This document shows, one piece after another, positions 1 through 39,690 of a DNA stretch of 64,000 nt; position 1 is the stretch's first letter, and each line of letters opens with the position of its first letter. Made by a program: the position numbers and the translations under genes. The notes beneath the pieces were generated by a model. It was not told where the DNA came from. It worked only from the letters and a program-made list of their open reading frames with translations, and did no database searches. This DNA comes from a virus (taxonomy: Duplodnaviria > Caudoviricetes), in IMG/VR virus record IMGVR_UViG_3300032319_000936, positions 1-64,000 of that record; one strand, written 5' to 3'.

Positions 1-1
1 C

Positions 2-709
2 AACCAGCTTGCCTCCCTGGAGGGAGCGCCCCAGCAAGTGGGGGATTCTTTCTATTGTATTAACAACCAGCTCACCTCACTCGAGGGAGCACCCCAGCAA
101 GTGGGAGGTAGTTTCGATTGCTACAACAACCAGCTCACCTCCCTGGAGGGAGCACCCCAGGAAGTGGGATGGGATTTCGATTGCTCCGACAACCAGCTCA
201 CCTCCCTGGAGGGAGCACCGCAGGAGGTGGGAGGTAGTTTCGATTGCTCCAACAACCAGCTTGCTTCTTTAGAGGGAGCGCCCCAGCAAGTGGGGGATTC
301 TTTCTATTGTATTAACAACCAGCTCACCTCACTCGAGGGAGCACCCCAGCAAGTGGAAGGGAATTTCGATTGCTCCAAAAACCAGCTCACCTCCCTGGAG
401 GGAGCACCCCAGCAAGTGGAAGGGAATTTCGATTGCTCCGACAACCAGCTCACCTCCCTGGAGGGAGCACCGCAGGAGGTGGGAGGAAATTTTAATTGCT
501 CCGATAATACTGTTCCGGAATCAGTTCTAAAAGCTCTCTATAAGAAGATGCAATCAGGCATGAGCTGGCCAGATGCAGTGGCCAGTTACTGGAGGCACAT
601 TAAATCCGAAGAAGACAGGATTCTGTTGGCTCCTTATAACCACACTCTGTCTCCTGAGGAGCTAAAGGGCTACCAGGCACTAGGGAGATTAAGAAAAAGA
701 ATACTATGA
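2..709 (+). CDS. 21-aa LRR-like repeat protein (5' truncated by window)
   Basis: Frame open from window start; at least 8 NQLTSLEGAPQxVGxxFxCxx repeats (63 bp period) and the family C-terminal cap. Confidence 0.9.
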   Translation, partial: NQLASLEGAPQQVGDSFYCINNQLTSLEGAPQQVGGSFDCYNNQLTSLEGAPQEVGWDFDCSDNQLTSLEGAPQEVGGSFDCSNNQLASLEGAPQQVGDSFYCINNQLTSLEGAPQQVEGNFDCSKNQLTSLEGAPQQVEGNFDCSDNQLTSLEGAPQEVGGNFNCSDNTVPESVLKALYKKMQSGMSWPDAVASYWRHIKSEEDRILLAPYNHTLSPEELKGYQALGRLRKRIL

Positions 710-1320
710 AACACATTAAGAGATATAAAGAACTATTCGAGAGCCAAACAGAGCTAACACAGGAGCAAATCAAGTGGCTGGATGAGTACGCTATGGGCAG
801 GTGGACACTTAATCCGGAAACAGGACTGGTGGATGTGAGAGGAAGTTTCGATTGCTCGCTACAGAAGCTGGCCGATTTTAAAGGTGTGAGATTTGGAGAG
901 GTGACCGTGAGTTTCGATTGCTCGCATACCTCGCTCACTTCTCTAGAGGGAGCACCCCAAATAGTGGGAGGTGCTTTCTATTGCAATCATAACCAGCTCA
1001 CGTCACTAAAGGGAGCACCACAAAAGGTGTGGGCGAGTTTTAATTGCGAACACAACGGACTCGTCTCACTAGAGGGAGCGCCCCTTTCGGTTGGGAGGTA
1101 TTTCTACTGCTCCGGCAATCCGGTCTCCGAATCGGTGCTAGAAGCTCTCTATAAGAAGATGCAGTCAGGCATGAGCTGGCCGAATGCTGTAGCCAGTTAC
1201 TGGAGGTACATTAGATCTAACGAGGACAAGATCCTATTGGCTCCTAGCAATCCAAATCTCACACCAGAAGATGTAAAAGGATATGAGGCACTAGGCAGAG
1301 TAAGTAAAAGAATCATATGA
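706..1320 (+). CDS. LRR-like repeat protein, 3 repeats
   Basis: MKHIKRYKELFE leader, WxLNPETGLVDV N-cap, ATGA overlap with previous gene. Confidence 0.9.
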   Translation: MKHIKRYKELFESQTELTQEQIKWLDEYAMGRWTLNPETGLVDVRGSFDCSLQKLADFKGVRFGEVTVSFDCSHTSLTSLEGAPQIVGGAFYCNHNQLTSLKGAPQKVWASFNCEHNGLVSLEGAPLSVGRYFYCSGNPVSESVLEALYKKMQSGMSWPNAVASYWRYIRSNEDKILLAPSNPNLTPEDVKGYEALGRVSKRII

Positions 1321-2120
1321 GACACATTAAGGCATATAGTCAACTATTCGAGAACCAAACAGAGCTCTCACCCGAGCAGATCGAGTGGTTGGATGAATCA
1401 TCCCGCGGAATTTGGGAGCTTAATCCACAAACTGGACTGGTTGATATGGATGGCGATTTCGATTGTACTAATAAGGGTCTGGCAAATCTCAGGGGTATCA
1501 GATTCGGTGAAGTGAGTGGTTCTTTCTATTGTGATTATAATCAGCTCACCTCACTAAAGGGAGCGCCTCAGAAGGTTGGTTCTTTCTTCTGTAATGACAA
1601 TCAGCTCATCTCTTTAGAGGGAGCACCTCAGATCGTTTTCGGTAGTTTCTTTTGTTATGCTAATCGACTCACCTCACTCGAGGGAGCACCCCAGAGCGTT
1701 GGCGGTGGTTTCTTTTGTAATGACAACCAGCTCACCTCACTCGAGGGAGCACCTCAGACCATTAGAGGGGATTTCTCTTGTGCTGGCAATCAGCTCACCA
1801 CACTAAAGGGAGCACCCCGAAGCGTTGGTCGTGGTTTCACTTGTGATTACAACCAGCTCACAAGTCTAGAGGGCGCACCTAAGACCGTTGACGGGAATTT
1901 CTATTGTAGTGACAATCCAGTCTCCGAAAAGACTTTAAAAGCCATTTTTAAGCTAATGAGAAATGGAATGGTGTATCAGCAGGCTCTAGAAGAATACTGG
2001 CCGGAGATGGGAGATGAAGATAGAGTGTTAGTGTATAAAGAAATGCCGAATCTACCCCAGGAAGATGCGAGAAAGTACAAGGCTCTAGCCACATACAGTA
2101 AAATAAAGGGATATTTATAA
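1317..2120 (+). CDS. LRR-like repeat protein, 6 repeats
   Basis: Same leader/N-cap/repeat/C-cap architecture. Confidence 0.9.
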   Translation: MRHIKAYSQLFENQTELSPEQIEWLDESSRGIWELNPQTGLVDMDGDFDCTNKGLANLRGIRFGEVSGSFYCDYNQLTSLKGAPQKVGSFFCNDNQLISLEGAPQIVFGSFFCYANRLTSLEGAPQSVGGGFFCNDNQLTSLEGAPQTIRGDFSCAGNQLTTLKGAPRSVGRGFTCDYNQLTSLEGAPKTVDGNFYCSDNPVSEKTLKAIFKLMRNGMVYQQALEEYWPEMGDEDRVLVYKEMPNLPQEDARKYKALATYSKIKGYL

Positions 2121-2952
2121 TGAGACACATTAAGCCGTATGGCCAACTATTTGAAGCCAGTGCAGAACTTACAGCAGAGCAGATTGACTGGCTGAATCAA
2201 TGCACATCCGGCAGCTGGGAGCTTAACACTTCTACAGGGCTTGTTGATGTGAAAGGAAATTTCAATTGTAGCTCAATGAATTTAGAAGATCTTAAAGGGA
2301 TTAAATTCGGGAAAGTTGATGGTGATTTCTATTGTGCTAACAATCAGCTCACCACACTAGAGGGAGCACCTCAGAGCGTTGGCTCTAGTTTCTATTGCTA
2401 TGGTAATCAGCTCACCACACTAGAGGGAGCACCTCAGAGCGTTGGTGGTGGTTTCTATTGCTATGGTAATCAGCTCACCACACTAGAGGGAGCACCTCAG
2501 AGCGTTGGTGGTGGTTTCTTTTGTAATGACAATCAGCTCACCACACTAAAGGGAGCACCTCAGACCCTTAGAGGGTATTTCTCTTGTGCTGGCAATCGAC
2601 TCACCACACTAGAGGGAGCGCCCCAGAAAGTTGGCGGTGTTTTCGCTTTCGATAAGAATCAAATCACTTCACTCGAAGGAGCACCACAGGAGATCGGATG
2701 GGGTTCCTCTTTGGGTTTCTCTTGTAGTGACAATCCAGTCTCTGAAAAGACTTTAAAAGCCATTTTTGAGCTAATGCTAAAAGGAATGGGATATCAGCAG
2801 GCTCTAGAAGAATACTGGCCTAAGATGGGAGATGAAGATAGGGCGGTAATGTATAAAGAAATGCCGAATCTACCCCCGGAAGATGCAAGAAAGTACAAGG
2901 CTCTAGCCACATACAGTAAAATAAAGGGGTATTTATAATGAGACACATTAAG
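1904..2952 (+). repeat. ~230 bp near-identical direct repeat (1904..2134 and 2722..2952) covering LRR C-cap and next start codon
   Basis: Direct visual alignment, offset 818 bp. Confidence 0.85.
2120..2938 (+). CDS. LRR-like repeat protein, 6 repeats
   Basis: Same architecture; C-terminal ~70 aa almost identical to 1317..2120. Confidence 0.9.
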   Translation: MRHIKPYGQLFEASAELTAEQIDWLNQCTSGSWELNTSTGLVDVKGNFNCSSMNLEDLKGIKFGKVDGDFYCANNQLTTLEGAPQSVGSSFYCYGNQLTTLEGAPQSVGGGFYCYGNQLTTLEGAPQSVGGGFFCNDNQLTTLKGAPQTLRGYFSCAGNRLTTLEGAPQKVGGVFAFDKNQITSLEGAPQEIGWGSSLGFSCSDNPVSEKTLKAIFELMLKGMGYQQALEEYWPKMGDEDRAVMYKEMPNLPPEDARKYKALATYSKIKGYL

Positions 2953-3615
2953 TCATATTTGGACCTCCTCGAGACACAAACCAGGCTAACAGCAGAGCAG
3001 ATGGTGTGGCTCAATGAATCATCCAATGGAATTTGGGAGATAAATCCACAGACTGGACTGGTTGACGTCAGGGGATTTTTTGAATGCTCAGGACAGAGAC
3101 TGACAGATTTCAAGGGTGTAAGGTTTGGAAATATCTGGAAGGGTTTCTATTGCGAGAATAACTCTCTCACTTCCTTAGCGGGAGCACCACAGAAAGTGGG
3201 CGGTAATTTCTTCTGCTCCTCTAACTCTCTTACCACTCTCGAAGGGGCACCAGAGACAGTGGATGGTGATTTCTACTGTGACCGTAACCGCCTCTCTTCA
3301 CTAGAGGGAAGTCCCGAGATAGTCGGTGGCGGGTTCTCCTGTTGTGATAACTACATCACTTCCTTAGATGGGGCGCCTCAGGTAGTGGAAGGCTATTTCT
3401 ACTGCGAGGGCAACCCGATATCTGAAGAGTCTATGAAAGTTGTGCTTCAGACGATGAGCAAGGAAGGACTCACTCTAGAAGAGGCTGTGAGCAAGTGCTG
3501 GCCCGATATTCCGGAGGAGGATAGAGCCTATCTGGCTGGACATAAACCTGATCTCTCACAGGAAGAGAGAAGAGGGTACGAGGCGCTAGCGAGATTAAAG
3601 AAAAGAGTTATGTGA
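2938..3615 (+). CDS. LRR-like repeat protein, 4 repeats
   Basis: Same architecture. Confidence 0.9.
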   Translation: MRHIKSYLDLLETQTRLTAEQMVWLNESSNGIWEINPQTGLVDVRGFFECSGQRLTDFKGVRFGNIWKGFYCENNSLTSLAGAPQKVGGNFFCSSNSLTTLEGAPETVDGDFYCDRNRLSSLEGSPEIVGGGFSCCDNYITSLDGAPQVVEGYFYCEGNPISEESMKVVLQTMSKEGLTLEEAVSKCWPDIPEEDRAYLAGHKPDLSQEERRGYEALARLKKRVM

Positions 3616-3731
3616 GAAACCTATGAATATAAAGAACCCCACTTGAGAAAAGACTATATCTAGGGGTTCCTAAAAAAGGGGTCCTCTAAGGAATATGCAT
3701 TAAAATCACAGTTAACTATTTTTTTCCAGTT

Positions 3732-3739
3732 GATATATA
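3732..3739 (+). promoter_or_regulatory. GATATATA putative late promoter
   Basis: Motif recurs shortly upstream of ~17 gene starts in the window. Confidence 0.7.
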
Positions 3740-3756
3740 ATAGGATCAGCATAATC

Positions 3757-3981
3757 ATGAATAAACAAAGGTACGTATCCAATCAACTCAATCTCAATTC
3801 TAACATTCAGCAGGCCGAGATTGAACGCAAGTGGAGAATGTTTGAAGAGGAGCAGGCGCAAATGGAACTAGCGATGAGAATAGCACAAAACATAAGCTCA
3901 ATGTCCGGAACTTTCGTACTAAGAGAGCTATTATACATGGATGTTGGTTACATGGAGGACGAATTAAATTACGTGGAATAA
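3757..3981 (+). CDS. hypothetical (putative structural) protein
   Basis: ATG 17 nt after GATATATA; coupled to next gene by TAATG. Confidence 0.7.
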   Translation: MNKQRYVSNQLNLNSNIQQAEIERKWRMFEEEQAQMELAMRIAQNISSMSGTFVLRELLYMDVGYMEDELNYVE

Positions 3982-6035
3982 TGGGAATAACAACAAGACA
4001 ATATGGCCCATACGCTAAGGGCAGTAGGTTAAATACTGCGGAGATGGATGAGAACTTCAACTATCTTTTAGGACTGGCCTCTAACGTGGGTGCCACTGGA
4101 GCAACTGGACCTACTGGAGCAGCCGGAGCAGCTGGAGCAACTGGACCAAGTGGATCAAACATTTACAATGCTGACGGAACATTAACGGGAGCAAGAACAT
4201 TAACACTAAACAGCAACACGTTAACAATAGCAGGAGGCACCTCATCCTCTCGCTTTTTTGCAAATGGTAACTTTGGTATTGGTACAACAGCGGACGCTGG
4301 ATACAAAGCGGACATAAACGGTACTGCTAGAATTAATAACGTACTCACAACTGTTGGTACTGCAACTTCTGACAACCCTACTGTAAGTTCTGAATTAGCA
4401 ACAACTGCATCAGGTACTAATTGGTCGGGAACTTCATTACCTTCGGGATATGCTCACACCACAGGTTCAACTGCTAACTTAACATCATCACTCAATGCTG
4501 TTGTTGGTACTACATATTTAATCACTTACACATTAGGTTTAGACCCTGATGTAGGTACAGGGTCAATAGGTACATTTACTTTTGGTGGTGTAGCAATACC
4601 AACAACTCAATACGATACTTCATTAAGTTTTTCTCTTGTAGCGACAACAACAGGAGCGTTAATAGTCACGCCAACTTCTGATTACAATGGAACAGTACAA
4701 GTTTCAATACAAAGTGTTACAGCATCAACCGCTTCAATTTTATACAAAAGAAGTGACGGAACAACGGTAAATGAATTTAGAGCAAATAGTTTAAGTTCAA
4801 ATGTATTTTTTGGTAACGTAGCAGGAGCAAACTCCTATAATGCAGGGCAAAATACTTTTATTGGCTCACTTGCAGGTCAATATAATGTAATAGGTGCGAG
4901 TTGCACATTTGTTGGATATTCAGCAGGAAATAAAAACGCAAGTTCTTTTAATAGTTTTTTTGGTAGTTTATCAGGTGTTTTTAACTCATCAGGTTACGAA
5001 AATACATTTTCAGGTTGCCAATCGGGATATTTGAATACAACAGGTTATCAAAATGTTTTTATTGGTTTTGCGAGTGGAAGAAATCAAACTTCGGGTTACA
5101 ATAATGCGTTTTTTGGGCATCAAACAGGATATAACAATACAACAGGATATGCAAACACTTATCTTGGTAATAATGCAGGGAAACAAAACATAACAGGCGC
5201 ACAAAATGTTTGTGTGGGTGCATTAGCAGGAATACTTAATACCGCAAGTAACAATATATTTATAGGGTATTCATCAGCATATAGCAATACATCAGGTACA
5301 TCAAACACAGTCATTGGATATTCAGCCGCATATCAAAACGCAACAAGTAGTTCAATAACAGCAATAGGTTATCAAGCAGGTTATAGTAATACAGGCGCAC
5401 AAAATACCTTTGTTGGTGCAGAAGCAGGATATGGTAATCAAAGTTATACAGCAAACACTTATATAGGATATAGGTCAGGTTATGGTAGTGGTGGTAGTGG
5501 TGGTGGAAGTAGTAATACTTATGTTGGTTTTTCCATAGCAATAAACCAAACATCGGCTACTTTTAATTCTATTTTAGGTTCAAGTGCGGCGGCAAATATA
5601 AATGCCGTCAGCGGTATGGTAGCAATAGGTTATTCTGCGGCAAGATATTATGGTACTTTAAATAACCTTAATACAGGAGGTGGTGGTAATAGTATATATA
5701 TTGGTCAGCAAACAAATACAGGAACTAATAGTTCAAGCAACGAAATTGTTATTGGTGCTTTTGGATTAGGATTAGGTACAAATACAACTCTTATAGGTGG
5801 TGCTTCTACAACACTAACAGCATTAAAAGGTAGTGTCATAATTGGTGCAACAGTTATTAATGCAGCGGCTATTTTACAAACCGATAGCACTACACAAGGT
5901 TTTTTACCACCAAGAATGACCACTGCTCAAAAAAATGCAATATCTTCACCACCCGCAGGTCTTGTTATATACGACACAACTCTAAACAAATTGTGTGTAT
6001 ATACAACAGCGTGGCAAACAATTACATCAGTATAA
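3981..6035 (+). CDS. tail fibre / adhesin-like protein
   Basis: Short collagen-like GATGATGPTG stretch, NTxxGxxAG YadA-head-like repeats, C-terminal STTQGFLPPRMTTAQKNAISSP motif typical of Bacteroidota phage fibres. Confidence 0.8.
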   Translation: MGITTRQYGPYAKGSRLNTAEMDENFNYLLGLASNVGATGATGPTGAAGAAGATGPSGSNIYNADGTLTGARTLTLNSNTLTIAGGTSSSRFFANGNFGIGTTADAGYKADINGTARINNVLTTVGTATSDNPTVSSELATTASGTNWSGTSLPSGYAHTTGSTANLTSSLNAVVGTTYLITYTLGLDPDVGTGSIGTFTFGGVAIPTTQYDTSLSFSLVATTTGALIVTPTSDYNGTVQVSIQSVTASTASILYKRSDGTTVNEFRANSLSSNVFFGNVAGANSYNAGQNTFIGSLAGQYNVIGASCTFVGYSAGNKNASSFNSFFGSLSGVFNSSGYENTFSGCQSGYLNTTGYQNVFIGFASGRNQTSGYNNAFFGHQTGYNNTTGYANTYLGNNAGKQNITGAQNVCVGALAGILNTASNNIFIGYSSAYSNTSGTSNTVIGYSAAYQNATSSSITAIGYQAGYSNTGAQNTFVGAEAGYGNQSYTANTYIGYRSGYGSGGSGGGSSNTYVGFSIAINQTSATFNSILGSSAAANINAVSGMVAIGYSAARYYGTLNNLNTGGGGNSIYIGQQTNTGTNSSSNEIVIGAFGLGLGTNTTLIGGASTTLTALKGSVIIGATVINAAAILQTDSTTQGFLPPRMTTAQKNAISSPPAGLVIYDTTLNKLCVYTTAWQTITSV

Positions 6036-6045
6036 AACTAAAATT

Positions 6046-6294
6046 ATGATACAAATAGAACCACTAGTTTTCCCCTTGAATCAGGGAACAGCAACGCAAA
6101 TGATTTTAACATTTCGCAATTTCACAACAACAGATACTTCTTGTGTTGTGCATTACCAAATTTTGACAGAAGATAAAACAGTTTTGTCCACAGGTGATTA
6201 TGCTTTAACAGAAGAGCAATATGCTCAATGGAGTACTGACAATGCCTTTGTGGAACAATGTGTGGCATCTTATCTAGGATTAACAATAATTTAA
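6046..6294 (+). CDS. putative fibre assembly/chaperone protein
   Basis: Small ORF directly after fibre; ATG after A-rich tract. Confidence 0.6.
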   Translation: MIQIEPLVFPLNQGTATQMILTFRNFTTTDTSCVVHYQILTEDKTVLSTGDYALTEEQYAQWSTDNAFVEQCVASYLGLTII

Positions 6295-6305
6295 AAACAA
6301 AAAAA

Positions 6306-6476
6306 ATGATTTTAAACGAAGAACAAATCAAAGAGTTAGACAGCTTTATTGCCGAAATGCCTTTAAAATACGGCCTCCCTCTACTGCAATTTTTTAATAA
6401 AATTCACGACGAGCAAAAAGCAAGCGAAGAAATGAAAACTGGTGGTTCAATTTCTGATTTCCCATTAAAAAGATAA
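6306..6476 (+). CDS. small hypothetical protein
   Basis: ATG after poly-A tract; typical post-fibre ORF. Confidence 0.6.
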   Translation: MILNEEQIKELDSFIAEMPLKYGLPLLQFFNKIHDEQKASEEMKTGGSISDFPLKR

Positions 6477-6634
6477 AAAAATAGGGGTAATCTTTTTTTT
6501 AATTTTCTATTAGTATAGTTTAATTCATATAGTGATAGTAGACTAGCTATTTGGTGATCTGTATCCTTCTGGATATCCTCTGAAACCTCCTCCTTCCCTT
6601 TCGATATATAGCGTACCAGCATATCACTAGACCC

Positions 6635-6752
6635 ATGGAGAAAAACCCTTACGAGAAGAATAAGTATTAAACGCACTGCTGCATCAACTGCTGCGAGGTT
6701 AATATTAACATCAGCACCAAATAACTGGACAATCGTAGACGGAGGAATATAA
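6635..6752 (+). pseudogene. remnant of BspA/DUF285-like surface protein gene
   Basis: GATATATA at 6603, 11-codon MEKNPYEKNKY* at 6635, then in another frame SIKRTAASTAARLILTSAPNNWTIVDGGI*, resembling the WTIxDGG C-terminus of DUF285 proteins. Confidence 0.55.
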
Positions 6753-6753
6753 T

Positions 6754-7017
6754 ATGAAATACTACTTAGCAACAAATGAGGTGGATGTATTCCACTATGG
6801 AGAAATGGCAGACACATCTGTGTTTACAACAGGTCAGCCAGTGTCCTTTGTGTATGTCACAAAGGCGGAACTAATAGCAAAACTGGCAGAGTATGGTCAG
6901 GAGTATCAGGAGCCACAAGAAGTGAGTGTTCCTGTCTCTGAAGCTCCTACTCAGGAACCACCCGTACCTGGACTACCGCTAGACGAAATACCCGTAGTCG
7001 ATCCGGGTGAAATATAA
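6754..7017 (+). CDS. hypothetical protein, Pro/Glu-rich tail
   Basis: ORF with plausible start directly after the remnant stop codon. Confidence 0.7.
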   Translation: MKYYLATNEVDVFHYGEMADTSVFTTGQPVSFVYVTKAELIAKLAEYGQEYQEPQEVSVPVSEAPTQEPPVPGLPLDEIPVVDPGEI

Positions 7018-7027
7018 CTATAGCTGA

Positions 7028-7768
7028 ATGAAGCATATTAAGGAATACCAAGAGCTTTTTGAAGCTCAGTCGCCATTAACTCGTGAGCAGAAGGACTGGC
7101 TCGATATGGGATCCAGCGGAACTTGGTTTCGTAATTCTGAAACAGGATTAGTTGATATAGTGGGTAATTTCATGGCTCATAGAGAGGGACTCACTGATTT
7201 TAAAGGAGTGAGGTTTGGAAAGGTGACTCACAATTTCATTTGCACATATAACTCTCTCTCCTCTCTAGACGGTGCACCACAGGAAGTGGGAGGAAATTTC
7301 TATTGCTATGACAATCAGCTCACCTCTCTAGAAGGAGGACCTACTATTGTTAAGGGAGATTATAATTGCGCAAGGAATCAGCTCACAACCCTAAAGGGAG
7401 CACCCGAGGTGGTTAAAGGTTATTTTGACTGCTGTAGAAACTTGCTTACCTCCTTGGAGGGTGCTCCGGAAAGTGTTGGTGGATATTTCGCTTGTTCACG
7501 TAACCAGATCACTTCTTTAGAAGGCTTGCCCAAATATATTGGAAGGAGTTTAGAATTACAGGACAACCCGGTTTCTCCTCCAGCCCTAAAATGGATCTAT
7601 GTTGGCATGAAGGCGGGATACAGCTTTACAGAAGCACTGGTCAGATACTGGAAGGAGATAAAGAACCCAGAAGACCTAGCCATATTGGCTCCTTATAATT
7701 CCACTCTATCTTCAGAGGAGCTAAAGGGATACGAAGCACTAGGTAGATTTAAAAAGAGAATACTATGA
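7028..7768 (+). CDS. LRR-like repeat protein, 5 repeats
   Basis: Family architecture. Confidence 0.9.
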   Translation: MKHIKEYQELFEAQSPLTREQKDWLDMGSSGTWFRNSETGLVDIVGNFMAHREGLTDFKGVRFGKVTHNFICTYNSLSSLDGAPQEVGGNFYCYDNQLTSLEGGPTIVKGDYNCARNQLTTLKGAPEVVKGYFDCCRNLLTSLEGAPESVGGYFACSRNQITSLEGLPKYIGRSLELQDNPVSPPALKWIYVGMKAGYSFTEALVRYWKEIKNPEDLAILAPYNSTLSSEELKGYEALGRFKKRIL

Positions 7769-8754
7769 GACACGTCAAGAAATATCAAGAGCTTTTTGAA
7801 GCTCGAACCCCATTAACACCAGAGCAGATCGAGTGGCTCGATGAGTGCACAAGAGGAACGTGGATGCGTAATCCAGAAACTGGACTTGTTGATGTGGCCG
7901 GCGGTTTCAATTGCGATGAAAAGGGTCTGACTGATTTCAAAGGGGTTAAATTTGGAGAGGTGAGTGGTGATTTCTTCTGCTCGAACAACGGGCTCACTTC
8001 ACTGGAAGGAGCTCCACAGCAGGTTGGACGAGGATTCTTTTGCTACCGAAATAAACTCACGTCTCTAGACGGGGCACCGCAGCGGATTGGAAAGTCTTTC
8101 GATTGTTCGGATAATCAGCTTACCTCACTGGTGAATGCGCCACAGGAGGTTGGGGAACATTTCAGTTGCTCTGATAACTACATCACGTCACTGGTAGGAG
8201 CACCGCAGAAAATTTGGTTGGATTTCTATTGTGGTAACAACCAGCTCACCTCACTGGATGGAGCTCCTCAACAGGTTGGAGGTAATTTCTGGTGTGAAGA
8301 TAACCAGATCACCACACTAGAGGGAGCTCCGCAGCGGGTTGGTGAGAATTTCAAGTGTTCTGATAATCAGCTCATCACATTAGAGGGAGCACCCCAGACT
8401 GTTGGTGGTAGATTCAATTGTTCACGTAACCAGCTCATCTCACTAGAAGGGACACTCCAGAAAGTTGGGACAGATCTCAATTGTGCGGACAATCAGCTCA
8501 TCTCACTAGAGGGGGTACCGAAAAAGATTGGTGGTGATCTTTATTGTGAGGGAAATCAAGTTTCTGGACCCATGCTTAAATCTCTCTATAGGAAGATGAA
8601 ATCAGGCATGTCCTGGGACGAAGCTGTTGAGATGCATTGGGACGATATGGATGAAGACGATAGGGCACTACTTGCTCAGTATAACCCAAGACTCTCACAG
8701 GAGGAGATAAGAGGGTATCAAGCACTAGCTAGGCTAAAGAAAAGAGTGATATGA
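7765..8754 (+). CDS. LRR-like repeat protein, 9 repeats
   Basis: Family architecture. Confidence 0.9.
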   Translation: MRHVKKYQELFEARTPLTPEQIEWLDECTRGTWMRNPETGLVDVAGGFNCDEKGLTDFKGVKFGEVSGDFFCSNNGLTSLEGAPQQVGRGFFCYRNKLTSLDGAPQRIGKSFDCSDNQLTSLVNAPQEVGEHFSCSDNYITSLVGAPQKIWLDFYCGNNQLTSLDGAPQQVGGNFWCEDNQITTLEGAPQRVGENFKCSDNQLITLEGAPQTVGGRFNCSRNQLISLEGTLQKVGTDLNCADNQLISLEGVPKKIGGDLYCEGNQVSGPMLKSLYRKMKSGMSWDEAVEMHWDDMDEDDRALLAQYNPRLSQEEIRGYQALARLKKRVI

Positions 8755-9809
8755 GACACGTAAAGAGATTTATAGACCTATTTGAGAATGTGCATGAGCT
8801 CAACAGGGAACAGAGAGAGTGGCTTGACGAGTGCATAAAAGGAACATGGGAGATCAATCCAGAGACTGGACTTGTTGATATCGATGGTGATTTTAGATGC
8901 TCCTGGGGAAATCTGACAGATTTTAAAGGAGTGAGATTTGGTAACGTTACTAGGCATTTCGCTTTCCCTAATAATTATCTCACCTCCCTGGAAGGAGCAC
9001 CTCTAAAAGTAATTAGAGGAGGTTTCGATTGCAGTAACAACAAACTCACCTCTCTAAAAGGAGCACCTCAAGAAGTGGGCGGGCATTTTTATTGTTCCGG
9101 TAACAAACTAGTATCCTTAGAGGGAGCACCTCGGAAGATAGGTGGCAATTTAAATTTCTCCTATAATTCAATCACATCTTTAGAGAAAGCACCGCTGAGC
9201 GTGGGAGGTGCGTACAGTTGTTCTGATAACTTGCTCACTTCTCTAAAGGGAGTACCTCAGACTATAGAAAATAGTTTCGATTGCTCCAGAAATCCTCTCA
9301 CCTCTCTAAAAGGGGCACCACAGATTATAAAGGGAACTTTTGAATGCTCAGGTGACAATCTTAAATCATTAGAAGGAGGTCCACAGAGAGTAGATGGAGG
9401 ATATAAGTGTTCTAAAAACCAGCTTACCTCCTTAGATGGGGCACCGGAAATAATAAACTCGTATTTTGATTGCTCCAGCAACTCGCTTACCTCTTTAAAG
9501 GGTGCGCCACGAATTATAAAGGGTTCTTTTTATTGCAGAGAAAATAACATTACCTCTTTGGAGGGAGCACCCCAGATTGTGGAAGGAGAAATATACTTCT
9601 CAGCCAATCCGATCACTCAAGCTGCTGTCCAGAAGATTTTTTTATCCATGGAGGAAGAAAATATTACTTTTGAGGAGGCAGTGGCACTGTGCTGGAATGA
9701 TATTCCAGAGGAGGACCAAATCTACTTAGCCAAACATAACCAAGATTTATCTCCTGATGAGAAGAAAGGATATGAGGCATTATCTAGGTATAGAGGAAGA
9801 ATCATATAA
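8751..9809 (+). CDS. LRR-like repeat protein, 10 repeats
   Basis: Family architecture. Confidence 0.9.
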   Translation: MRHVKRFIDLFENVHELNREQREWLDECIKGTWEINPETGLVDIDGDFRCSWGNLTDFKGVRFGNVTRHFAFPNNYLTSLEGAPLKVIRGGFDCSNNKLTSLKGAPQEVGGHFYCSGNKLVSLEGAPRKIGGNLNFSYNSITSLEKAPLSVGGAYSCSDNLLTSLKGVPQTIENSFDCSRNPLTSLKGAPQIIKGTFECSGDNLKSLEGGPQRVDGGYKCSKNQLTSLDGAPEIINSYFDCSSNSLTSLKGAPRIIKGSFYCRENNITSLEGAPQIVEGEIYFSANPITQAAVQKIFLSMEEENITFEEAVALCWNDIPEEDQIYLAKHNQDLSPDEKKGYEALSRYRGRII

Positions 9810-9823
9810 AAACATTGGACACA

Positions 9824-9851
9824 AAAAAAGCAATCAATTGATTGCTTTTTT
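9824..9851. terminator. bidirectional intrinsic terminator
   Basis: AAAAAAGCAATC-AATT-GATTGCTTTTTT between convergent genes. Confidence 0.8.
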
Positions 9852-9878
9852 AATACTATCTGTAGCTTATACTAGGAA

Positions 9879-10112
9879 TTATGCATATAGTGCTGTTAGT
9901 CTAGCCTGAACGTCTGCGTCAGTCCATTGTCCAGCCGCGTCATATGCTGCTCCTTCCCATAGTACTACTGGCTCGTCAAGCTCTTCGATAAAGCATCTTA
10001 CCATTTTCTTCTTTGGTAGGTCAACAATTCTCTCGATTGTGATTGTGCTGATTGTTTTACTTTTCTCTTCTTGTAAAACAACTTTCTTTGGATTTTCTAG
10101 GTTAATTTGCAT
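9879..10112 (-). CDS. small hypothetical protein
   Basis: GATATATA at 10139..10132 upstream. Confidence 0.75.
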   Translation of the reverse strand: MQINLENPKKVVLQEEKSKTISTITIERIVDLPKKKMVRCFIEELDEPVVLWEGAAYDAAGQWTDADVQARLTALYA

Positions 10113-10226
10113 GATGTGTTTTTATTTTCTCTATATATCAATACCAGGAAATAATCCGCCCAAGTGGACAAATTTCTAAATAAAATGATACCTGAATACT
10201 CCTTTCCCGCTCTGATATATAGGGAT

Positions 10227-10619
10227 ATGAAACATCTAAAGAGATACAAAGAATTGTTTGAAGAACTGGAGCCGAAAGACTTTATCGAGCTTGAAGATTT
10301 TGCGGACGAACTGTTTTCTGAACTTGGCTTAGATATAGTACTCACTAATCACTTCAAGCAAAGGGTCAACGACTGGAGAGAGAATAGAAAACCGATCACC
10401 TTTGAAGAGCTTGAACAGTTCTTTCTGAAAGCATATAAGAATGCAGGAAAAGACATCAAGAAGCTGCCGCATAACAAGGAGGTGGTTCTTAGAGATCACT
10501 GGACCAAATTGAACAGCCCCATTATAGTCAAGGATAGAGGTAGTGAGAAAGACGTTCTTATGCAGACCATAATGAGAAAGAAGGACTTTGGCAGTCCAGA
10601 TCCAATCATCACGATATAA
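10227..10619 (+). CDS. hypothetical protein with CTS-like leader
   Basis: Start moved to MKHLKRYKELFE, 5 nt after GATATATA (10214..10221). Confidence 0.8.
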   Translation: MKHLKRYKELFEELEPKDFIELEDFADELFSELGLDIVLTNHFKQRVNDWRENRKPITFEELEQFFLKAYKNAGKDIKKLPHNKEVVLRDHWTKLNSPIIVKDRGSEKDVLMQTIMRKKDFGSPDPIITI

Positions 10620-10627
10620 TCTAAAAT

Positions 10628-11377
10628 TTATTTGGCTAGCAACTTCGCTTGCTCTAAATCTCTAACCCCGAATTTTTGAGCTTGTTTAAGATATCCGCTC
10701 GAAGAGAATTTGTCTGGGTTATCCTTCACCATCCTATTCCACCCATTGTATTTCGTGGTGTAATTCCAGATTTCATCTGTTGAGTCTAAATTAGGATTCA
10801 CTTTCTTGGTGTAAAAATACCCTCCGACATTACCACCAGTTCTATCTGCTCCATGAGCACAGTGTATTAGAGTGTTACCTCCTGAGAGTATCTCATTTAC
10901 TTTATCCTGATCTTTTGTTGAGGATAGCTTATTGAATTTGATACCTAAGCTGTTGCATAGATTTTTCTCTTCCTGTATCGAAGTTCCAGGATCAGATTTT
11001 CTATGTCTGCTGTCGTTATCGTCGCCATTTAGCCTAATAACGTTTCTTATACCGTACTTCTCTAAGAAATACTTAAGATCTTTGAGTGGCATCTGTGCAC
11101 TTCTGTAATTAGGCTTGGTTGTGGATAGATTATCAGGTATAAGATGTATGTTGTAAGTTTTAGATAGGCCTGCATCTTCTTTCTCAGTATCAAATGAGCC
11201 AGAGCTAATAAAATCCCCGCTTATCTTTTCAGGATCAACTTTTGCTGGTTCCTTGTATTGTATCTCACCAGATCCGGATCCAACACCAGGATACATTTTA
11301 TTGAGTATATTGGACGGTATCTGCCTATCCCCCTCATTTAGTGCTTCAAATAGCTCGAATTTGCTAATTACCCTCAT
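10628..11377 (-). CDS. Cys-based (dual-specificity/tyrosine) phosphatase
   Basis: HCAHGADRTG CX5R motif, YRSAQ motif; leader MRVISKFELFE. Confidence 0.8.
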   Translation of the reverse strand: MRVISKFELFEALNEGDRQIPSNILNKMYPGVGSGSGEIQYKEPAKVDPEKISGDFISSGSFDTEKEDAGLSKTYNIHLIPDNLSTTKPNYRSAQMPLKDLKYFLEKYGIRNVIRLNGDDNDSRHRKSDPGTSIQEEKNLCNSLGIKFNKLSSTKDQDKVNEILSGGNTLIHCAHGADRTGGNVGGYFYTKKVNPNLDSTDEIWNYTTKYNGWNRMVKDNPDKFSSSGYLKQAQKFGVRDLEQAKLLAK

Positions 11378-11378
11378 A

Positions 11379-11699
11379 TTAAATAGAGATGTTACACTCA
11401 CTTAATAGGTCAAATATATTCAAGTCCTTTATCTCATTAGTGGTATCCCAAGTGATTACCTGTGAGCCGTTTTCGTATCCACCTGAGCATTTACCGTCCT
11501 TAAAAAAGATGATGATAGATGAGGAATTATCCTCATCTGGTAATTCAAGTTCGCTTAGGCCTGGTAATATATGGATGCAATCTGAAAGTGATTCTGATTC
11601 TAGAACTAATCCGTTTGAATCACAGAATAATACTTTGAATGATCTCTCCTTGCTCTTTCCCATGATATTAAAAAACTCGTAAAGTTCAATGTTTTTCAT
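11379..11699 (-). CDS. hypothetical protein
   Basis: GATATATA at 11713..11706; leader MKNIELYEFF. Confidence 0.7.
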   Translation of the reverse strand: MKNIELYEFFNIMGKSKERSFKVLFCDSNGLVLESESLSDCIHILPGLSELELPDEDNSSSIIIFFKDGKCSGGYENGSQVITWDTTNEIKDLNIFDLLSECNISI

Positions 11700-11766
11700 A
11701 TGATCTATATATCAATTAAGGGAATGTTGAATAGCACACTATCGTGTCAAATTGATGTGGTGATAA

Positions 11767-12411
11767 TCATATTGATATGGTCCCGTCCGGGTTTTCACTT
11801 CCAACTGCAAGCAACTCTTTAGCTTTAGCTGCGTCTATTAGTTTTCCGCTTTTCACCATCTGTGTTGCTTCGATATCCTTAGCTGTATAAAATTTAGCTA
11901 TGTACGGAATTAGTATTGTTAAAGCGTAAGTTCCTGTCTTCTTAATGTCACCATCAGAAACACCAGTTTTCTTTAAAATATCAATAGCTGCTGTTATGTA
12001 TTTGTCTATATCCCCGATTTTATATTTGTAAGTAACTTCACCAGGTACAGATCCTTTTGTGGTTTCTTCCACCCACTGTGTAAGTGTCTTTGTGTCTAGA
12101 AGTCCCTTAGCTGGATCTAGAAAGTACTGCATTAAATTTTGAACTGTCTGAGGCTTGTTGCATGTTCCATTTACATCTTCCTTTTTAGCTCCACCGAATT
12201 TAACGCAAGATTTTCTGAATATAGTTTTATACTCTTCTATCCAGCTTTTTTGGTCCTTCATATCTGCATCCATCATTTTCTTGATAGCTGGAAGTATCGA
12301 TAAAATAAACGGGTCAGTTACCGCTTTAGAAAATAACTTAATTTTACCAAGTCCTAAAGAATCAAAGACCCCCTCGTTGATAAAATTTTCAAATATCTTT
12401 ACGTGTTTCAT
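11767..12411 (-). CDS. hypothetical protein with CTS-like leader
   Basis: MKHVKIFENFINE. Confidence 0.75.
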   Translation of the reverse strand: MKHVKIFENFINEGVFDSLGLGKIKLFSKAVTDPFILSILPAIKKMMDADMKDQKSWIEEYKTIFRKSCVKFGGAKKEDVNGTCNKPQTVQNLMQYFLDPAKGLLDTKTLTQWVEETTKGSVPGEVTYKYKIGDIDKYITAAIDILKKTGVSDGDIKKTGTYALTILIPYIAKFYTAKDIEATQMVKSGKLIDAAKAKELLAVGSENPDGTISI

Positions 12412-12515
12412 AGATTTTCTATTCGATTATTGACTATATGGAGAGATAGTTACCTGATTTATGGCACCTGTTTAACTAGTAGATGGTGCCGTGTATTTAG
12501 TTGGATTAGGCATTT

Positions 12516-13772
12516 CTATAATAGGTTTTTCATGTTAAGATACCTCTCCATAGCTGAATAGTACTTAAAGTCTTCTTCCGATAGTAGATCTTTCACCTGT
12601 TTATATATTCTAACCTTTTCTCCGTCGGTCATTTTGTCCCACTCCTTGATAATGCCTTGCTCCCATGAGATTTTGTATGCATAGCATGTTTTTGCTATGT
12701 CTTTTAAAAATTCCTTTGGCATGTCGTCTTGATCAGTCATCCATATTGTTCTAGCTAGCTGAAATTTTGGATCCTCGTAATTAAATCCTTTTAGTGATTC
12801 AATAGGGTTGTCCTCTAGATCTATAGTTCCATCTATGAATTTTGATATACCAACCACGTCTTTAATTTCATTGCCTGAGCAATTGTATAAACCTATAACT
12901 TCTTCAGGTGAACCCTCTAGACTTGTTAATTTATTTTCAGAGACATTAAAGTAACCATTAACTATTCTAGGAGACCCATCTAGACTCTGTAGATCACATG
13001 ATGAAGCATCAAAATCTGCAGTTTCTTCAGGACAACCCGATAAAGACCTTAGATTGGAGTTCAGGTAAATCAGATAATTCATTGAGTTGTTACCCTTAGT
13101 AGGTCCTCCCTCTAAGCTAACCAGATCGTTTGAGTACATAATAAAATCACCTCCGATTTCTTTAGTACATCCTTTTAGATTCTTTATGTTGTTCTGAGCT
13201 AAGTTGAAACTGCCACCAACAAAATTTGGAGCACCCTCAACACTCTCTATACTGTTTAATGTACCCACAAAAGATCCTCCTACAATTTTAGGTCCTCCTT
13301 CCAGGGTGTAAATGAAATTACTTGAGAAATCAAAGTAACCTTTTACCTCTTCCGGTGATCCTTTTAGGGAATCTAAGCTACACAAATTGCAATAATAATG
13401 ACCGCCTACCTTTTTCGGACCAAATTCGAGGGACTCTAATCTTTTATTCCTTTTACACGAGAAATCACCTCCTACAACTTCTGGGCATCCCTTTAAAGTT
13501 TTTAGGTTATTAGATGATATTAAAAAAACTCCTGTGACAACACCAAATTCTATATCCTCTAGATCGTATAGTGAATAATCCCTCGCATCGAAATCCCCAT
13601 TGACGTCCACCTTTCCCGTTACATCGTTATATGTCCACGATCCTTTTTGTCTGCAGTGCAGATCTAAAAATTTAATCTGGTCCTCAGTTAGACCCCGGGA
13701 TTCCCCCTTATCTGATTCAGAATCCTGATATTCCTCAAATAGCTCTTTATATTTCTTAACTCTTTCTATCAT
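12516..13772 (-). CDS. divergent LRR-like repeat protein
   Basis: About 12 degenerate LxSLxGxPxxVGG repeats, same N-cap and C-cap as the + strand family. Confidence 0.85.
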   Translation of the reverse strand: MIERVKKYKELFEEYQDSESDKGESRGLTEDQIKFLDLHCRQKGSWTYNDVTGKVDVNGDFDARDYSLYDLEDIEFGVVTGVFLISSNNLKTLKGCPEVVGGDFSCKRNKRLESLEFGPKKVGGHYYCNLCSLDSLKGSPEEVKGYFDFSSNFIYTLEGGPKIVGGSFVGTLNSIESVEGAPNFVGGSFNLAQNNIKNLKGCTKEIGGDFIMYSNDLVSLEGGPTKGNNSMNYLIYLNSNLRSLSGCPEETADFDASSCDLQSLDGSPRIVNGYFNVSENKLTSLEGSPEEVIGLYNCSGNEIKDVVGISKFIDGTIDLEDNPIESLKGFNYEDPKFQLARTIWMTDQDDMPKEFLKDIAKTCYAYKISWEQGIIKEWDKMTDGEKVRIYKQVKDLLSEEDFKYYSAMERYLNMKNLL

Positions 13773-14251
13773 CTGAATTTAGGTTTCAATCTGTCCTCCC
13801 ATTTTCTAAGTCCAAGATTTCCTCTTAGATATGCATCAGCTTCTATCTCTTCAGCGGCTTTAGTAGAATCTTCGCCTAATCCTGTAACTGCGGGACTTAA
13901 ATCTAGCCCCTTATTGATATGCTGATCTGCGTGTATTAGCTCGTGAGCAATCGATCTCAGTATGTCCTTAAGTGCTCTACCTGTAACGAATATGTTTATG
14001 CAGTTGTCTTTAAAGTCATAGTACCCAGTTCTTTTGAAAGCTGGATGTGTATCTGGTTGTTCTTCCTCTATGAAAGCAACAGTGGGTATCGACTCTTCAG
14101 GGAAAGGCATATCCTGCATCATGTGTCCCATGAGAGAGCAGCATAATGGTGATATGTTCTCCCCGCCTATATTGAAAGAATTTCCACTGTTAACCTGTGG
14201 CATTATTTCTATCTGTGAGAGATAGTCACTGAATTTTTCTACCTTATGCAT
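13769..14251 (-). CDS. putative Zn-metallopeptidase
   Basis: LRSIAHELIH HExxH motif with downstream E. Confidence 0.6.
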   Translation of the reverse strand: MHKVEKFSDYLSQIEIMPQVNSGNSFNIGGENISPLCCSLMGHMMQDMPFPEESIPTVAFIEEEQPDTHPAFKRTGYYDFKDNCINIFVTGRALKDILRSIAHELIHADQHINKGLDLSPAVTGLGEDSTKAAEEIEADAYLRGNLGLRKWEDRLKPKFR

Positions 14252-15961: not shown

Positions 15962-15995
15962 TTTTTTGAATTATTTACAGAACTATATATCTAAA

Positions 15996-16604: not shown

Positions 16605-16609
16605 CAATC

Positions 16610-39398: not shown

Positions 39399-39678
39399 AT
39401 ATTGACTCTTCTATCAGTTCTGCTACTAGATCATCAAGTCCCTCTACTTCCCTGAATCTACTTGCTAACCACTGGGGCTCTGCAAATACCTCAACACCAT
39501 TGAGGGTTCCTTTAATATTTGGGTTTATAATCTCAACCAGGAGGAGTCCGACCTTGCCTGAATTGACGATCTCACGAATCGTGTAGTGTTCCCCAAACTT
39601 CGGTGCGTTTAGACAGTGCATATAAACCTTTTCTGGATACCTATCATCTATACACTGTACTATTGTTCCAACTTTCAT
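39385..39678 (-). CDS. hypothetical protein
   Basis: ORF in operon. Confidence 0.7.
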   Translation of the reverse strand: MKVGTIVQCIDDRYPEKVYMHCLNAPKFGEHYTIREIVNSGKVGLLLVEIINPNIKGTLNGVEVFAEPQWLASRFREVEGLDDLVAELIEESIYEKA

Positions 39679-39690
39679 TTTGCTAATCTA

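What the first reader, a model, noticed from the sequence alone, without database searches (positions are those of the whole stretch)
1..13772. Tandem, mosaic repertoire of phage LRR proteins built like a variable-receptor library
SEEN: at least 8 paralogues on + (1-9809, mostly translationally coupled) and a ninth on - (12516..13772) share four modules: (i) an N-terminal leader, (ii) a fixed N-cap (WxxNPxTGLVDVxGxF..FKGVRFG), (iii) 3, 4, 5, 6, 6, 8+, 9, 10 or ~12 copies of a 21-aa repeat, and (iv) a helical C-cap. In the repeat, NQLTSLEGAP is near-constant while the residues around xFxCxxN vary strongly (Y/D/W/H/K/N). C-caps are shuffled: genes 1 and 2 share one type, genes 3 and 4 share ~230 bp near-identical DNA, 2938 and 8751 share a third, 7028 carries the tail of gene 1, and 7765 is a hybrid. 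KNOWN: in LRR solenoids the variable beta-strand residues form the binding face, as in VLRs and plant NLRs. INFERENCE: recombination between 63-bp units diversifies a set of protein binders. Given their leader they are probably packaged and injected, for example to neutralise varied host defence proteins. I know of no described phage system of this kind.
Basis: partly seen in the sequence, partly recalled or inferred. Interest (0 to 1): 0.9.

Follow-up and report, generated by a model that had tools for sequence, protein, structure and literature searches.

The report
Phage array of leader-tagged LRR binders
A lake jumbo phage related to T4 carries nine genes for small leucine-rich-repeat binding proteins that differ mainly on the predicted binding face, and each starts with a short tag like the one T4 uses to load proteins into its head, so they are probably cargo injected into the host, although neither packaging nor any target has been shown.

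Summary
The window starts a 181-kb, incomplete jumbo-phage contig. It holds nine paralogues built as a 12-aa leader, N-cap, 3 to about 12 repeats of 21 aa, and a four-helix C-cap. Variation sits at the canonical LRR concave-face positions. A model of one member (pLDDT 94.5) is a cysteine-ladder solenoid, closest to InlJ, YopM, SspH and IpaH.

It is an inherited multigene family, not a programmed VLR-like system. Most repeats are old, and orthologues in the nearest relative evolve under purifying selection. Even so, repeat units and whole genes come and go between related strains.

The "packaged" idea gains indirect support. The leader also heads 12 or more unrelated proteins. Its non-LRR form, [FY]xx[FY][LIV]xE, recurs 13 times in the T4-type protease-scaffold protein of a complete, collinear 290-kb relative. 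Three leader genes and the first LRR gene of the nearest relative's array start 4-7 nt after a GATATATA motif that also precedes both tail-fibre genes. Packaging, cleavage, targets and any anti-defence role remain untested.

The family is large (more than 5,000 homologues) and appears virus-only. I found no paper on it, but this scan has noted the same theme in at least eight other phage genomes.

The parts
2..709 (+). g0: LRR paralogue, 5' end cut by the contig start. At least 8 units plus a C-cap. It holds a 252-nt (4-unit) tandem duplication at 93% identity.
706..1320 (+). g1: leader, N-cap, 3 units and a C-cap of the g0 type.
1317..2120 (+). g2: 6 units. The 3' part, about 1617-1826 and 1898-2140, is about 80-97% identical to g3, against 66% in the first 195 nt.
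2120..2938 (+). g3: 6 units. Units at 2383-2445 and 2446-2508 match at 59 of 63 nt. One unit is missing from the orthologue in the nearest relative and from a contig of another sample.
2938..3615 (+). g4: 4 old, diverged units. The orthologue in the nearest relative is 88% identical in protein with the same unit count.
3732..6035 (+). Block inside the array: GATATATA motif (3732-3739), small ORF 3757-3981, and a 684-aa collagen-like tail-fibre or tail-spike-like gene (3981-6035). No fibre gene lies at this point of the array in the nearest relative, and the block is bridged in one contig of another sample.
6603..7017 (+). GATATATA motif (6603-6610) and ORF 6754-7017, which would head the g5-g7 run of genes if they form one transcription unit.
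7028..7768 (+). g5: 5 units, with a C-cap tail like that of g0.
7765..8754 (+). g6: 9 units. This gene was modelled (pLDDT 94.5); the first 10 residues are low-confidence. Its orthologue is 83% identical.
8751..9809 (+). g7: 10 units.
10214..10619 (+). GATATATA motif followed 5 nt later by a 130-aa non-LRR protein that carries the LRR-type leader (MKHLKRYKELFE).
10628..11377 (-). Leader-like N-terminus on a protein with a CX5R phosphatase-type motif (HCAHGADRTG). No Pfam hit.
11767..12411 (-). 214-aa non-LRR protein with the leader MKHVKIFENFINE.
12516..13772 (-). g8: divergent LRR paralogue of 418 aa with about 11-12 degenerate units and the leader MIERVKKYKELFE. It lies in a run of same-strand genes with other leader-bearing genes.
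13769..14251 (-). 160-aa leader-bearing protein with an HExxH motif.
15131..15991 (-). 276-aa protein with a leader-like N-terminus, preceded by GATATATA (15984-15991). It is the first gene of the same-strand run that contains g8.

Best explanation
This is an inherited multigene family of small, acidic, cysteine-ladder LRR binding proteins. It belongs to a lineage of freshwater jumbo myoviruses with a T4-type head.

Each gene has four modules: a portable 12-residue leader (M-[KR]-H-[IV]-K-x-[YF]-x-x-L-F-E), a fixed N-cap, a variable number of 21-residue repeats, and a four-helix C-cap. The core and convex side of each repeat are held constant, while the concave-face residues differ from unit to unit.

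The family grows and changes by gene duplication and loss, gain and loss of single 63-nt units, and unequal crossing-over or gene conversion between paralogues. Each established paralogue then keeps its own binding face under purifying selection. The result is a panel of different fixed specificities, not a programmed diversity generator.

The most likely role is inferred, not shown. The proteins would be made late, loaded into the prohead through the leader, trimmed after the Glu of L-F-E by the T4-type prohead protease, and ejected into the cell with the DNA. There, each would bind a different host or competitor protein.

My odds:
- Family anatomy and mode of evolution: about 0.9.
- Capsid loading: about 0.5.
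- Targets are defence proteins: about 0.25.
For: Anatomy and fold
- Gene structure, repeat register and per-position variability are shown.
- The model has pLDDT 94.5, with a low-confidence leader.
- The best solved matches are YopM, SspH1/2, IpaH and InlJ.

Evolution
- Synonymous differences between units are near saturation (pS 0.60-0.73), yet core dN/dS is 0.03.
- Against the nearest relative, orthologue dN/dS is 0.44 at variable positions and 0.16 at conserved positions.
- Recent events: a 252-nt duplication in g0 at 93% identity, a 63-nt duplication in g3 at 59 of 63 nt, and g2/g3 3' parts at about 80-97% against 66% in the first 195 nt.
- The relative's array differs in unit numbers, order and content.
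- Contigs from other samples join 1348 to 2164, 2387 to 2451 (63 nt), 2135 to 2954 (818 nt) and 3611 to 6603.
- In a related lineage, two contigs with LRR genes 99.7-100% identical differ by three LRR genes.

Leader
- 21 leader matches were found in this contig, 19 of them at the first Met of the ORF; 9 are LRR genes and 12 are not. About 20 N-terminal matches occur in the complete relative.
- The strict motif [FYW]xx[FYW][LIVM]xE starts within the first 13 residues of 12 ORFs. About 0.9 would be expected from 13 internal matches in 58,974 aa.
- In the 289,651-bp relative, 13 of the 39 internal matches lie in one protein. That protein is a fusion of a Peptidase_S77/S80 prohead protease with a scaffold, and it sits next to a Gp23-type capsid gene.
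- That relative is collinear with this contig: 111 ORFs match at a median 52% identity. The head module falls just beyond this contig's end.
- In the T4 capsid-targeting sequence, residues 4 and 7 target the protein and residues 8 and 10 direct cleavage. The tag works on foreign proteins (PMC9026906).

Expression
- GATATATA occurs 18 times in the window against 4 expected.
- 33 of the 34 sites in the contig have an ORF start within 80 nt. These ORFs include both tail-fibre genes, an SLT lysin and many leader-bearing genes.
- The same motif directly precedes the first LRR gene of the relative's array.

Distribution
- More than 5,336 homologues were found.
- Arrays of roughly 6 to 25 genes occur in every related viral contig examined.
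- The nearest ESM Atlas clusters are 100% viral.
- Only remote LRR relatives occur in cellular genomes, apart from one MAG contig at 56% identity that was not examined.
Against: - There is no direct evidence that any of these proteins is in a virion, is cleaved, or binds anything.
- The LRR leader (Y-x-x-L-F-E) is one residue shorter than the strict motif shared by the scaffold, the non-LRR leaders and T4, and it does not match that motif. Only the MKHIKxY prefix and an L-x-E remain.
- The prohead protease and capsid genes are not on this contig. They are inferred from a relative at a median 52% identity.
- The mature LRR proteins are acidic, with pI 4.6-6.2. The T4 relatives of IPI-III are described as basic proteins (PMC9026906).
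- LRR arrays in other lineages carry different N-termini.
- dN/dS below 1 gives no sign of an arms race on the binding face.
- The structural variants come from short-read contigs, which can mis-join repeats.
- That GATATATA marks late genes is inferred only from the genes it precedes.
Confidence: 0.5

Rival explanations
1. The LRR proteins act inside the infected cell and are never packaged. On this view the shared N-terminus has another role, such as a translation-initiation context, a folding helix, or a degradation tag read by the phage's own ClpP.
For: - The contig encodes a true ClpP (187 bits).
- The LRR leader does not match the strict scaffold-type motif.
- The proteins are acidic.
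- LRR arrays in other lineages have other N-termini.
Against: - The non-LRR leader motif is the repeat unit of the protease-scaffold protein of the collinear relative, and it matches the T4 capsid-targeting pattern.
- The same leader heads enzymes and unrelated proteins.
- GATATATA precedes both leader-bearing genes and tail-fibre genes.
Confidence: 0.27
2. The LRR proteins are external virion adhesins or accessory receptor-binding proteins. The constant ends would dock them to fibres or the baseplate, and the variable face would read host surface molecules.
For: - A tail-fibre-like gene sits inside the array.
- LRR or beta-helix modules are proposed host-recognition parts of phage Goslar.
- An LRR-like protein sits in the tail module of a vibriophage.
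Against: - No fibre gene lies between the LRR genes of the nearest relative's array, and the fibre block is bridged in another sample's contig.
- In the complete relative the arrays lie at 234-239 kb and 273-279 kb, far from the block collinear with this contig's baseplate and large-protein region (66-105 kb).
- The leader is shared with putative enzymes (a P-loop protein, and proteins with CX5R-phosphatase and HExxH motifs).
- No trimerisation or fibre-anchor domain was found.
Confidence: 0.12
3. This is a programmed hypervariation system: VLR-like cassette assembly or a diversity-generating retroelement rewrites the concave-face codons within a population.
For: - The layout of caps plus variable LRR modules resembles VLRs.
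- Unit-level and gene-level variants are seen between samples.
Against: - Every gene is complete, and there is no incomplete acceptor gene with donor cassettes.
- No reverse transcriptase is present in the 181 kb.
- The units are anciently diverged.
- Orthologues keep their variable residues, with dN/dS of 0.44.
Confidence: 0.03

Closest known systems
T4 internal proteins IPI, IPII, IPIII and Alt, with the capsid-targeting sequence, and the variable internal-protein loci of T-even phages (PMC9026906, PMC3012670)
   Same: - A short N-terminal tag of about 10-12 aa with two hydrophobic or aromatic residues three apart, followed by [LIV]-x-E.
- The tag is portable between unrelated proteins.
- Gene content at these loci varies greatly between relatives.
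- A complete relative has a T4-type S77 protease and a Gp23 capsid protein.
   Different: - The cargo here is a 9-gene panel of acidic LRR solenoids (roughly 6-25 genes in related contigs), not small basic proteins.
- The LRR leader is one residue shorter than the strict motif.
- No packaging, cleavage or function has been shown.
Listeria internalin J (PDB 3bz5), the 21-residue cysteine-ladder LRR, classed with IRREKO-type LRRs
   Same: - The 21-residue period.
- Cys in place of the second core Leu (46 of 49 units).
- Best sequence match among solved structures (E 3e-14).
   Different: InlJ is a secreted, cell-wall-anchored adhesin with its own cap and an Ig-like domain. The phage proteins have no signal peptide and have their own N-cap and C-cap.
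Type III secretion LRR effectors YopM, SspH1/2, IpaH and SlrP
   Same: - Short bacterial-type LRRs.
- Top structural matches.
- Injected proteins that bind host proteins through the LRR.
   Different: There is no NEL ubiquitin-ligase domain. The delivery route would be the phage head, not a secretion needle.
Lamprey variable lymphocyte receptors
   Same: - Constant caps.
- A variable number of LRR modules.
- Variation concentrated on the concave strand.
   Different: VLRs are assembled somatically from cassettes. Here complete genes are inherited, and orthologues are conserved.
LRR, ankyrin and FNIP multigene families of giant eukaryotic viruses
   Same: - Tandem paralogue expansions of repeat-protein binders in large viral genomes.
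- These families give the top viral fold matches.
   Different: The hosts, repeat type and caps all differ, and those families are not known to carry a leader.

Membership tests
LRR superfamily | Tandem LxxLxLxxNxL-type units | tested here: met
   49 exact 21-aa units have F5, C7, N10, L12 and L15 near-invariant.
LRR superfamily | Curved solenoid with a parallel beta-sheet on the concave side | tested here: met
   The model has pLDDT 94.5 with a short strand in each unit, and all Foldseek hits are LRR proteins.
LRR superfamily | Pfam LRR model above its gathering score | tested here: inconclusive
   LRR_4 passes for g0 (38.2 bits) and g6 (28.0 bits) against a cut-off of 27. g7 scores 23.2, and six genes give no hit.
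InlJ-type cysteine-ladder (21-residue) LRR | 21-residue period with Cys at the second core position | tested here: met
   Cys at position 7 in 46 of 49 units. InlJ is the best solved-structure match (E 3e-14).
Internalins | Signal peptide, internalin cap, Ig-like inter-repeat domain, cell-wall anchor | tested here: not met
   The N-terminus is a charged leader followed by an unrelated N-cap. The C-terminus is a helical cap of about 65 aa with no Pfam hit.
T4-type capsid-targeted cargo | N-terminal tag with residues spaced as Y4, F7, I8 and E10 in T4 | tested here: inconclusive
   12 non-LRR ORFs match [FYW]xx[FYW][LIVM]xE. The LRR leader, Y-x-x-L-F-E, keeps the MKHIKxY prefix and an L-x-E but is one residue shorter.
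T4-type capsid-targeted cargo | Tag is portable between unrelated proteins | tested here: met
   Twelve non-LRR ORFs match the leader pattern in this contig. The LRR-type leader also heads non-LRR proteins at 10227-10619 and in the relative.
T4-type capsid-targeted cargo | Genome encodes a gp21-type prohead protease and a gp23-type capsid protein | tested here: inconclusive
   Not found on this 66%-complete contig. Present in the complete collinear relative: S77 at 32 bits and Gp23 at 143 bits.
T4-type capsid-targeted cargo | Protein is present in virions and is processed at the N-terminus | not testable with these tools
   The phage is uncultured and no proteome is available.
VLR-like somatic assembly | Incomplete acceptor gene flanked by donor cassettes | tested here: not met
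   All nine genes are complete ORFs with caps, apart from the cut at the contig end.
Diversity-generating retroelement | Reverse transcriptase with template and variable repeats | tested here: not met
   No RVT_1 match in the 181 kb. The missing third of the genome was not searched.
IpaH/SspH NEL effectors | C-terminal NEL E3 ligase domain | tested here: not met
   The proteins end in a short helical cap and give no such Pfam hit.

The most novel reading that the evidence does not exclude
T4-related jumbo phages carry inherited, recombining panels of LRR effectors. The panels are loaded into the capsid by a tag that copies the scaffold's own repeat, and are injected with the DNA. Each effector would neutralise a different host immune or takeover-relevant protein. 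This would be a phage counterpart of the LRR effector sets of type III secretion systems, and a large, unexplored class of anti-defence proteins.
Probability: 0.25. Interest if true: 0.85.

Novelty: new variant of a known kind. Interest (0 to 1): 0.62.

Why it matters
If these proteins really are head cargo, then a family of more than 5,000 uncharacterised phage proteins becomes a ready-made catalogue of injected protein binders. That would extend the T4 internal-protein idea from a few small inhibitors to whole panels of modular binders.

The link between the scaffold repeat and the leader also suggests a simple, testable rule for how T4-type heads choose their cargo. The compact 21-residue scaffold, with its defined variable face, could also be useful for engineering binders.

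Tried and rejected
- Megablast of 1-14000 against cultured phages found nothing.
- A protein search there found only a leaderless Vibrio-phage LRR, uncultured huge phages, and weak hits in records named Listeria phage.
- The 'head maturation protease' PHROG hit at 40107-40832 is a true ClpP, not a prohead protease.
- PF03420 is absent from this contig. Collinearity with the complete relative suggests the head module lies beyond the contig end.
- A possible -35 element (GAAAC) upstream of GATATATA is not general: 3 sites were found.
- No reverse transcriptase was found.
- The alignment-based scan of cellular genomes could not run. The single-protein scan gave only remote LRR relatives, apart from one MAG contig at 56% identity that I did not examine further.
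- Literature searches found LRR modules only in Goslar DUF7941 proteins and a weak vibriophage case, not this family.
- The Matsushima 2021 survey of viral LRRs is not in the library.
I could not trace or verify this.
- A leader-bearing 476-aa protein has relatives only in uncultured huge phages, so no proteome evidence is available.
- I did not run a complex prediction of leader with protease or scaffold. A negative result would mean nothing, and enzyme-substrate pairs rarely pass.
- Parts of the stretch without contig cover in other samples are not evidence of absence.

Full report
**What the window is.** The window is the first 64 kb of a 180,758-bp IMG/VR virus contig that CheckV rates 66% complete. 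All 14 matches to LRR protein g6 lie in the first 14 kb, and the contig begins inside an LRR gene, so the assembly broke within the array. Parts of the stretch recur in freshwater metagenomes from several studies.

- Eight LRR genes lie on the + strand (g0 2-709, g1 706-1320, g2 1317-2120, g3 2120-2938, g4 2938-3615, g5 7028-7768, g6 7765-8754, g7 8751-9809). One divergent gene, g8, lies on the - strand at 12516-13772.
- Neighbouring genes overlap by 1 or 4 nt.
- The repeat anchors are spaced exactly 21 aa apart.
- Laid out in register, each protein is a leader (M-[KR]-H-[IV]-K-x-[YF]-x-x-L-F-E), an N-cap, 3 to about 12 units, and a helical C-cap of about 65 aa.
- Over 49 exact units, V1, F5, C7, N10, L12, L15, G17 and P19 are almost invariant. 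Positions 2, 3, 4, 6, 8, 9, 11 and 21 carry 2.2-3.0 bits of entropy and are rich in Y, D, N, S, R and H. Apart from position 21, these are the x positions of LxxLxLxxNxL.

**Fold.**
- An AlphaFold2 model of g6, built with 52 family members, has mean pLDDT 94.5. It shows a low-confidence leader (first ten residues, mean 58), a helix-plus-hairpin N-cap, one short strand at F5-x6 in each unit, and four C-terminal helices.
- The best solved matches are the short-repeat bacterial LRRs: YopM, SspH1/2, IpaH, SlrP and InlJ. By sequence, InlJ, the 21-residue cysteine-ladder LRR, is best at E 3e-14.
- Pfam recognises only two of the nine genes above its threshold.

**How the family evolves.**
- Between units, synonymous sites are near saturation (pS 0.60-0.73). 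dN/dS is 0.03 in the core, 0.16 on the convex side and about 0.6 at the variable sites. The constant 'NQLTSLEGAPQ' is therefore kept by selection on the protein, not by recent homogenisation.
- The nearest relative (locus L017, a 47-kb contig) has orthologues of g4, g5 and g6 with the same unit numbers, at 88, 74 and 83% protein identity. Pooled dN/dS is 0.44 at variable LRR positions, 0.16 at conserved positions, 0.33 in the N-module and 0.26 in the C-cap. The binding faces are less constrained, but they are not under detectable positive selection.
- The array is nonetheless dynamic:
  - g0 holds a 252-nt, four-unit duplication at 93% identity.
  - Two adjacent g3 units match at 59 of 63 nt.
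  - The 3' parts of g2 and g3 are about 80-97% identical (92% over the last 243 nt), against 66% in their first 195 nt.
  - The relative has a 3-unit gene where g0 has at least 8 units, and 5-unit genes where g2 and g3 have 6. Its gene order differs, and a 179-aa non-LRR gene sits where the window has the fibre block.
- Contigs from three other samples, 90-99% identical to the window, show further variants:
  - 1348 joined to 2164, which removes g2.
  - 2387 joined to 2451, which removes exactly one 63-nt unit of g3.
  - 2135 joined to 2954, which removes 818 nt, the spacing of the g2/g3 repeat.
  - 3611 joined to 6603, which removes the fibre block.
  These are short-read contigs, so mis-joins in repeats cannot be excluded. 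The 63-nt and g3-unit variants do agree with the independent relative.
- In another lineage, two contigs whose shared LRR genes are 99.7-100% identical differ by three extra LRR genes.
- No reverse transcriptase is present, and every gene is complete. This is birth-and-death evolution plus unequal recombination, not VLR-like or DGR-like programmed diversification.

**Distribution.**
- More than 5,336 database proteins match at E below 1e-5. Many have the same four modules.
- The five related viral contigs searched whole gave 4 to 29 LRR matches each, which I read as roughly 10, 25, 17 and at least 6 genes in the four largest arrays. Each lineage has its own constant N-terminal and C-terminal modules.
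- The nearest ESM Atlas clusters are 100% viral.
- Cellular genomes gave only remote LRR relatives at 25-38% identity, mostly in Bacteroidota, plus one MAG contig at 56% identity that I did not examine.

**The leader.**
- A leader pattern anchored on Met gave 21 matches in this contig, 19 of them at the first Met of the ORF; 9 are LRR genes and 12 are not. About 20 N-terminal matches occur in a complete relative.
- Matching or near-matching proteins include a P-loop protein, a protein with a CX5R phosphatase motif and one with an HExxH motif.
- The stricter motif [FYW]xx[FYW][LIVM]xE starts within the first 13 residues of 12 ORFs here. About 0.9 would be expected from its internal frequency of 13 in 58,974 aa.
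- That motif has the spacing of the T4 capsid-targeting sequence. In T4, residues 4 and 7 direct targeting, residues 8 and 10 direct cleavage, and ten residues suffice to load foreign proteins (PMC9026906).

**The head module of the relative.**
- The complete 289,651-bp relative shares 111 ORFs with this contig at a median 52% identity. It is collinear with the contig over about 90 kb, and by that alignment its head module falls just beyond this contig's end.
- It encodes a 676-aa fusion of a Peptidase_S77/S80 prohead protease with a scaffold, next to a Gp23-type capsid gene.
- The scaffold part of that protein holds 13 of the 39 internal matches to the leader motif in that genome.
- The non-LRR leaders therefore look like a single copy of the scaffold's own repeat, ending in the Glu after which proteases of this type cut.

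**Caveats on the leader.**
- The LRR leader shares the MKHIKxY prefix and an L-x-E, but it is one residue shorter and fails the strict motif.
- The LRR proteins are acidic, with pI 4.6-6.2.

**Expression context.**
- GATATATA occurs 18 times in the window against 4 expected.
- 33 of the 34 sites in the contig have an ORF start within 80 nt. These include both tail-fibre genes, an SLT/PG-binding lysin and many leader-bearing genes.
- In the window it precedes the g5-g7 run (6603) and heads the same-strand run of genes that contains g8 (15984). In the nearest relative it sits 5 nt before the first LRR gene of the array.
- This fits a late promoter, but the timing is inferred only from the genes it precedes.

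**Verdict.**
- The anatomy is as described, and the 'binding face varies' reading is sound.
- The 'library' is an inherited panel that changes by recombination over evolutionary time, not an active diversity generator.
- Capsid loading and injection is the best-supported mechanism (about 0.5), through the link between leader, scaffold and protease. It remains undemonstrated.
- An anti-defence role is speculation by analogy with T4 IPI.
- I found no paper describing this family. Earlier notes of this scan report the same theme in at least eight other phage genomes, so it is recurrent rather than unique to this window.

Noticed in passing
window 3732, 6603, 10132, 10214, 11706, 15984, 18974, 18986, 22549, 27643, 36090, 54256, 55373, 56791 and others: GATATATA is a promoter-like motif. 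It occurs 18 times against 4 expected. 33 of the 34 sites in the contig lie within 80 nt upstream of an ORF start, mostly 4-30 nt. The downstream genes include tail-fibre, lysin and leader-bearing genes.
   Followed up: partly
L039:3277-5307 (relative G001 43277-45307): Prohead protease (S77/S80) fused to a scaffold made of about 18 tandem 11-residue 'YS(E/K)YLAENLDxxI' repeats. The repeat matches the cargo-leader motif and the T4 capsid-targeting pattern.
   Followed up: partly
window 3981-6035: A 684-aa collagen-like (G-x-y run) tail-fibre or tail-spike-like gene sits inside the LRR array. GC over 4001-6000 is 38%, against 44-49% over the two bins that hold g0-g4. No fibre gene lies at this point of the relative's array.
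   Followed up: partly
window 40107-40832 (-): A true ClpP protease homologue (187 bits). PHROGs labels it as a head maturation protease.
   Followed up: yes
window 45307-46200 (-): A short (297-aa) Gp23-like capsid-protein paralogue lies next to the NAMPT gene, far from any head module. The complete relative has a similar short Gp23-like hit (G001 170687-171217).
   Followed up: no
window 38802-51754 (-): A cluster of RNA-repair and NAD-salvage genes: HAD_SAK_2, 2H-SAK, two nucleotidyltransferases, tRNA nucleotidyltransferase, NAMPT and PRPP synthetase.
   Followed up: no
window 15996-16607 (-) and 53297-54187 (-): Two phage-encoded sigma factors, one of them ECF-like with region 4.
   Followed up: no
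window 21434-22480 (-): A glutamine-synthetase-like gene (Gln-synt_C and Gln-synt_N domains) in a phage.
   Followed up: no
window 10628-11377 (-), 13769-14251 (-), 27657-29450 (+): Proteins with the leader or a leader-like N-terminus that look like enzymes: one with a CX5R phosphatase motif, one with an HExxH motif, and one with SLT lytic transglycosylase plus PG-binding domains.
   Followed up: partly
proteins P0008 and P0075; ESM Atlas structure row 5: The same 21-aa LRR type occurs on 540-565-aa proteins with large, unrelated N-terminal domains. One bacterial ESM Atlas cluster (535 aa) pairs it with a PcfJ-like domain, so the LRR block itself is portable.
   Followed up: no
L019 4197-15702 versus L021 1759-12346: Two near-identical contigs of another lineage have shared LRR genes 99.7-100% identical but differ by three inserted LRR genes.
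   Followed up: partly
L034:3015-4214: In the complete relative, the gene right after the capsid gene encodes a Lys/Glu-rich, probably coiled-coil protein. A leader-like 'MKNIPSFKEF...' sits at an internal Met, which may be the true start.
   Followed up: no
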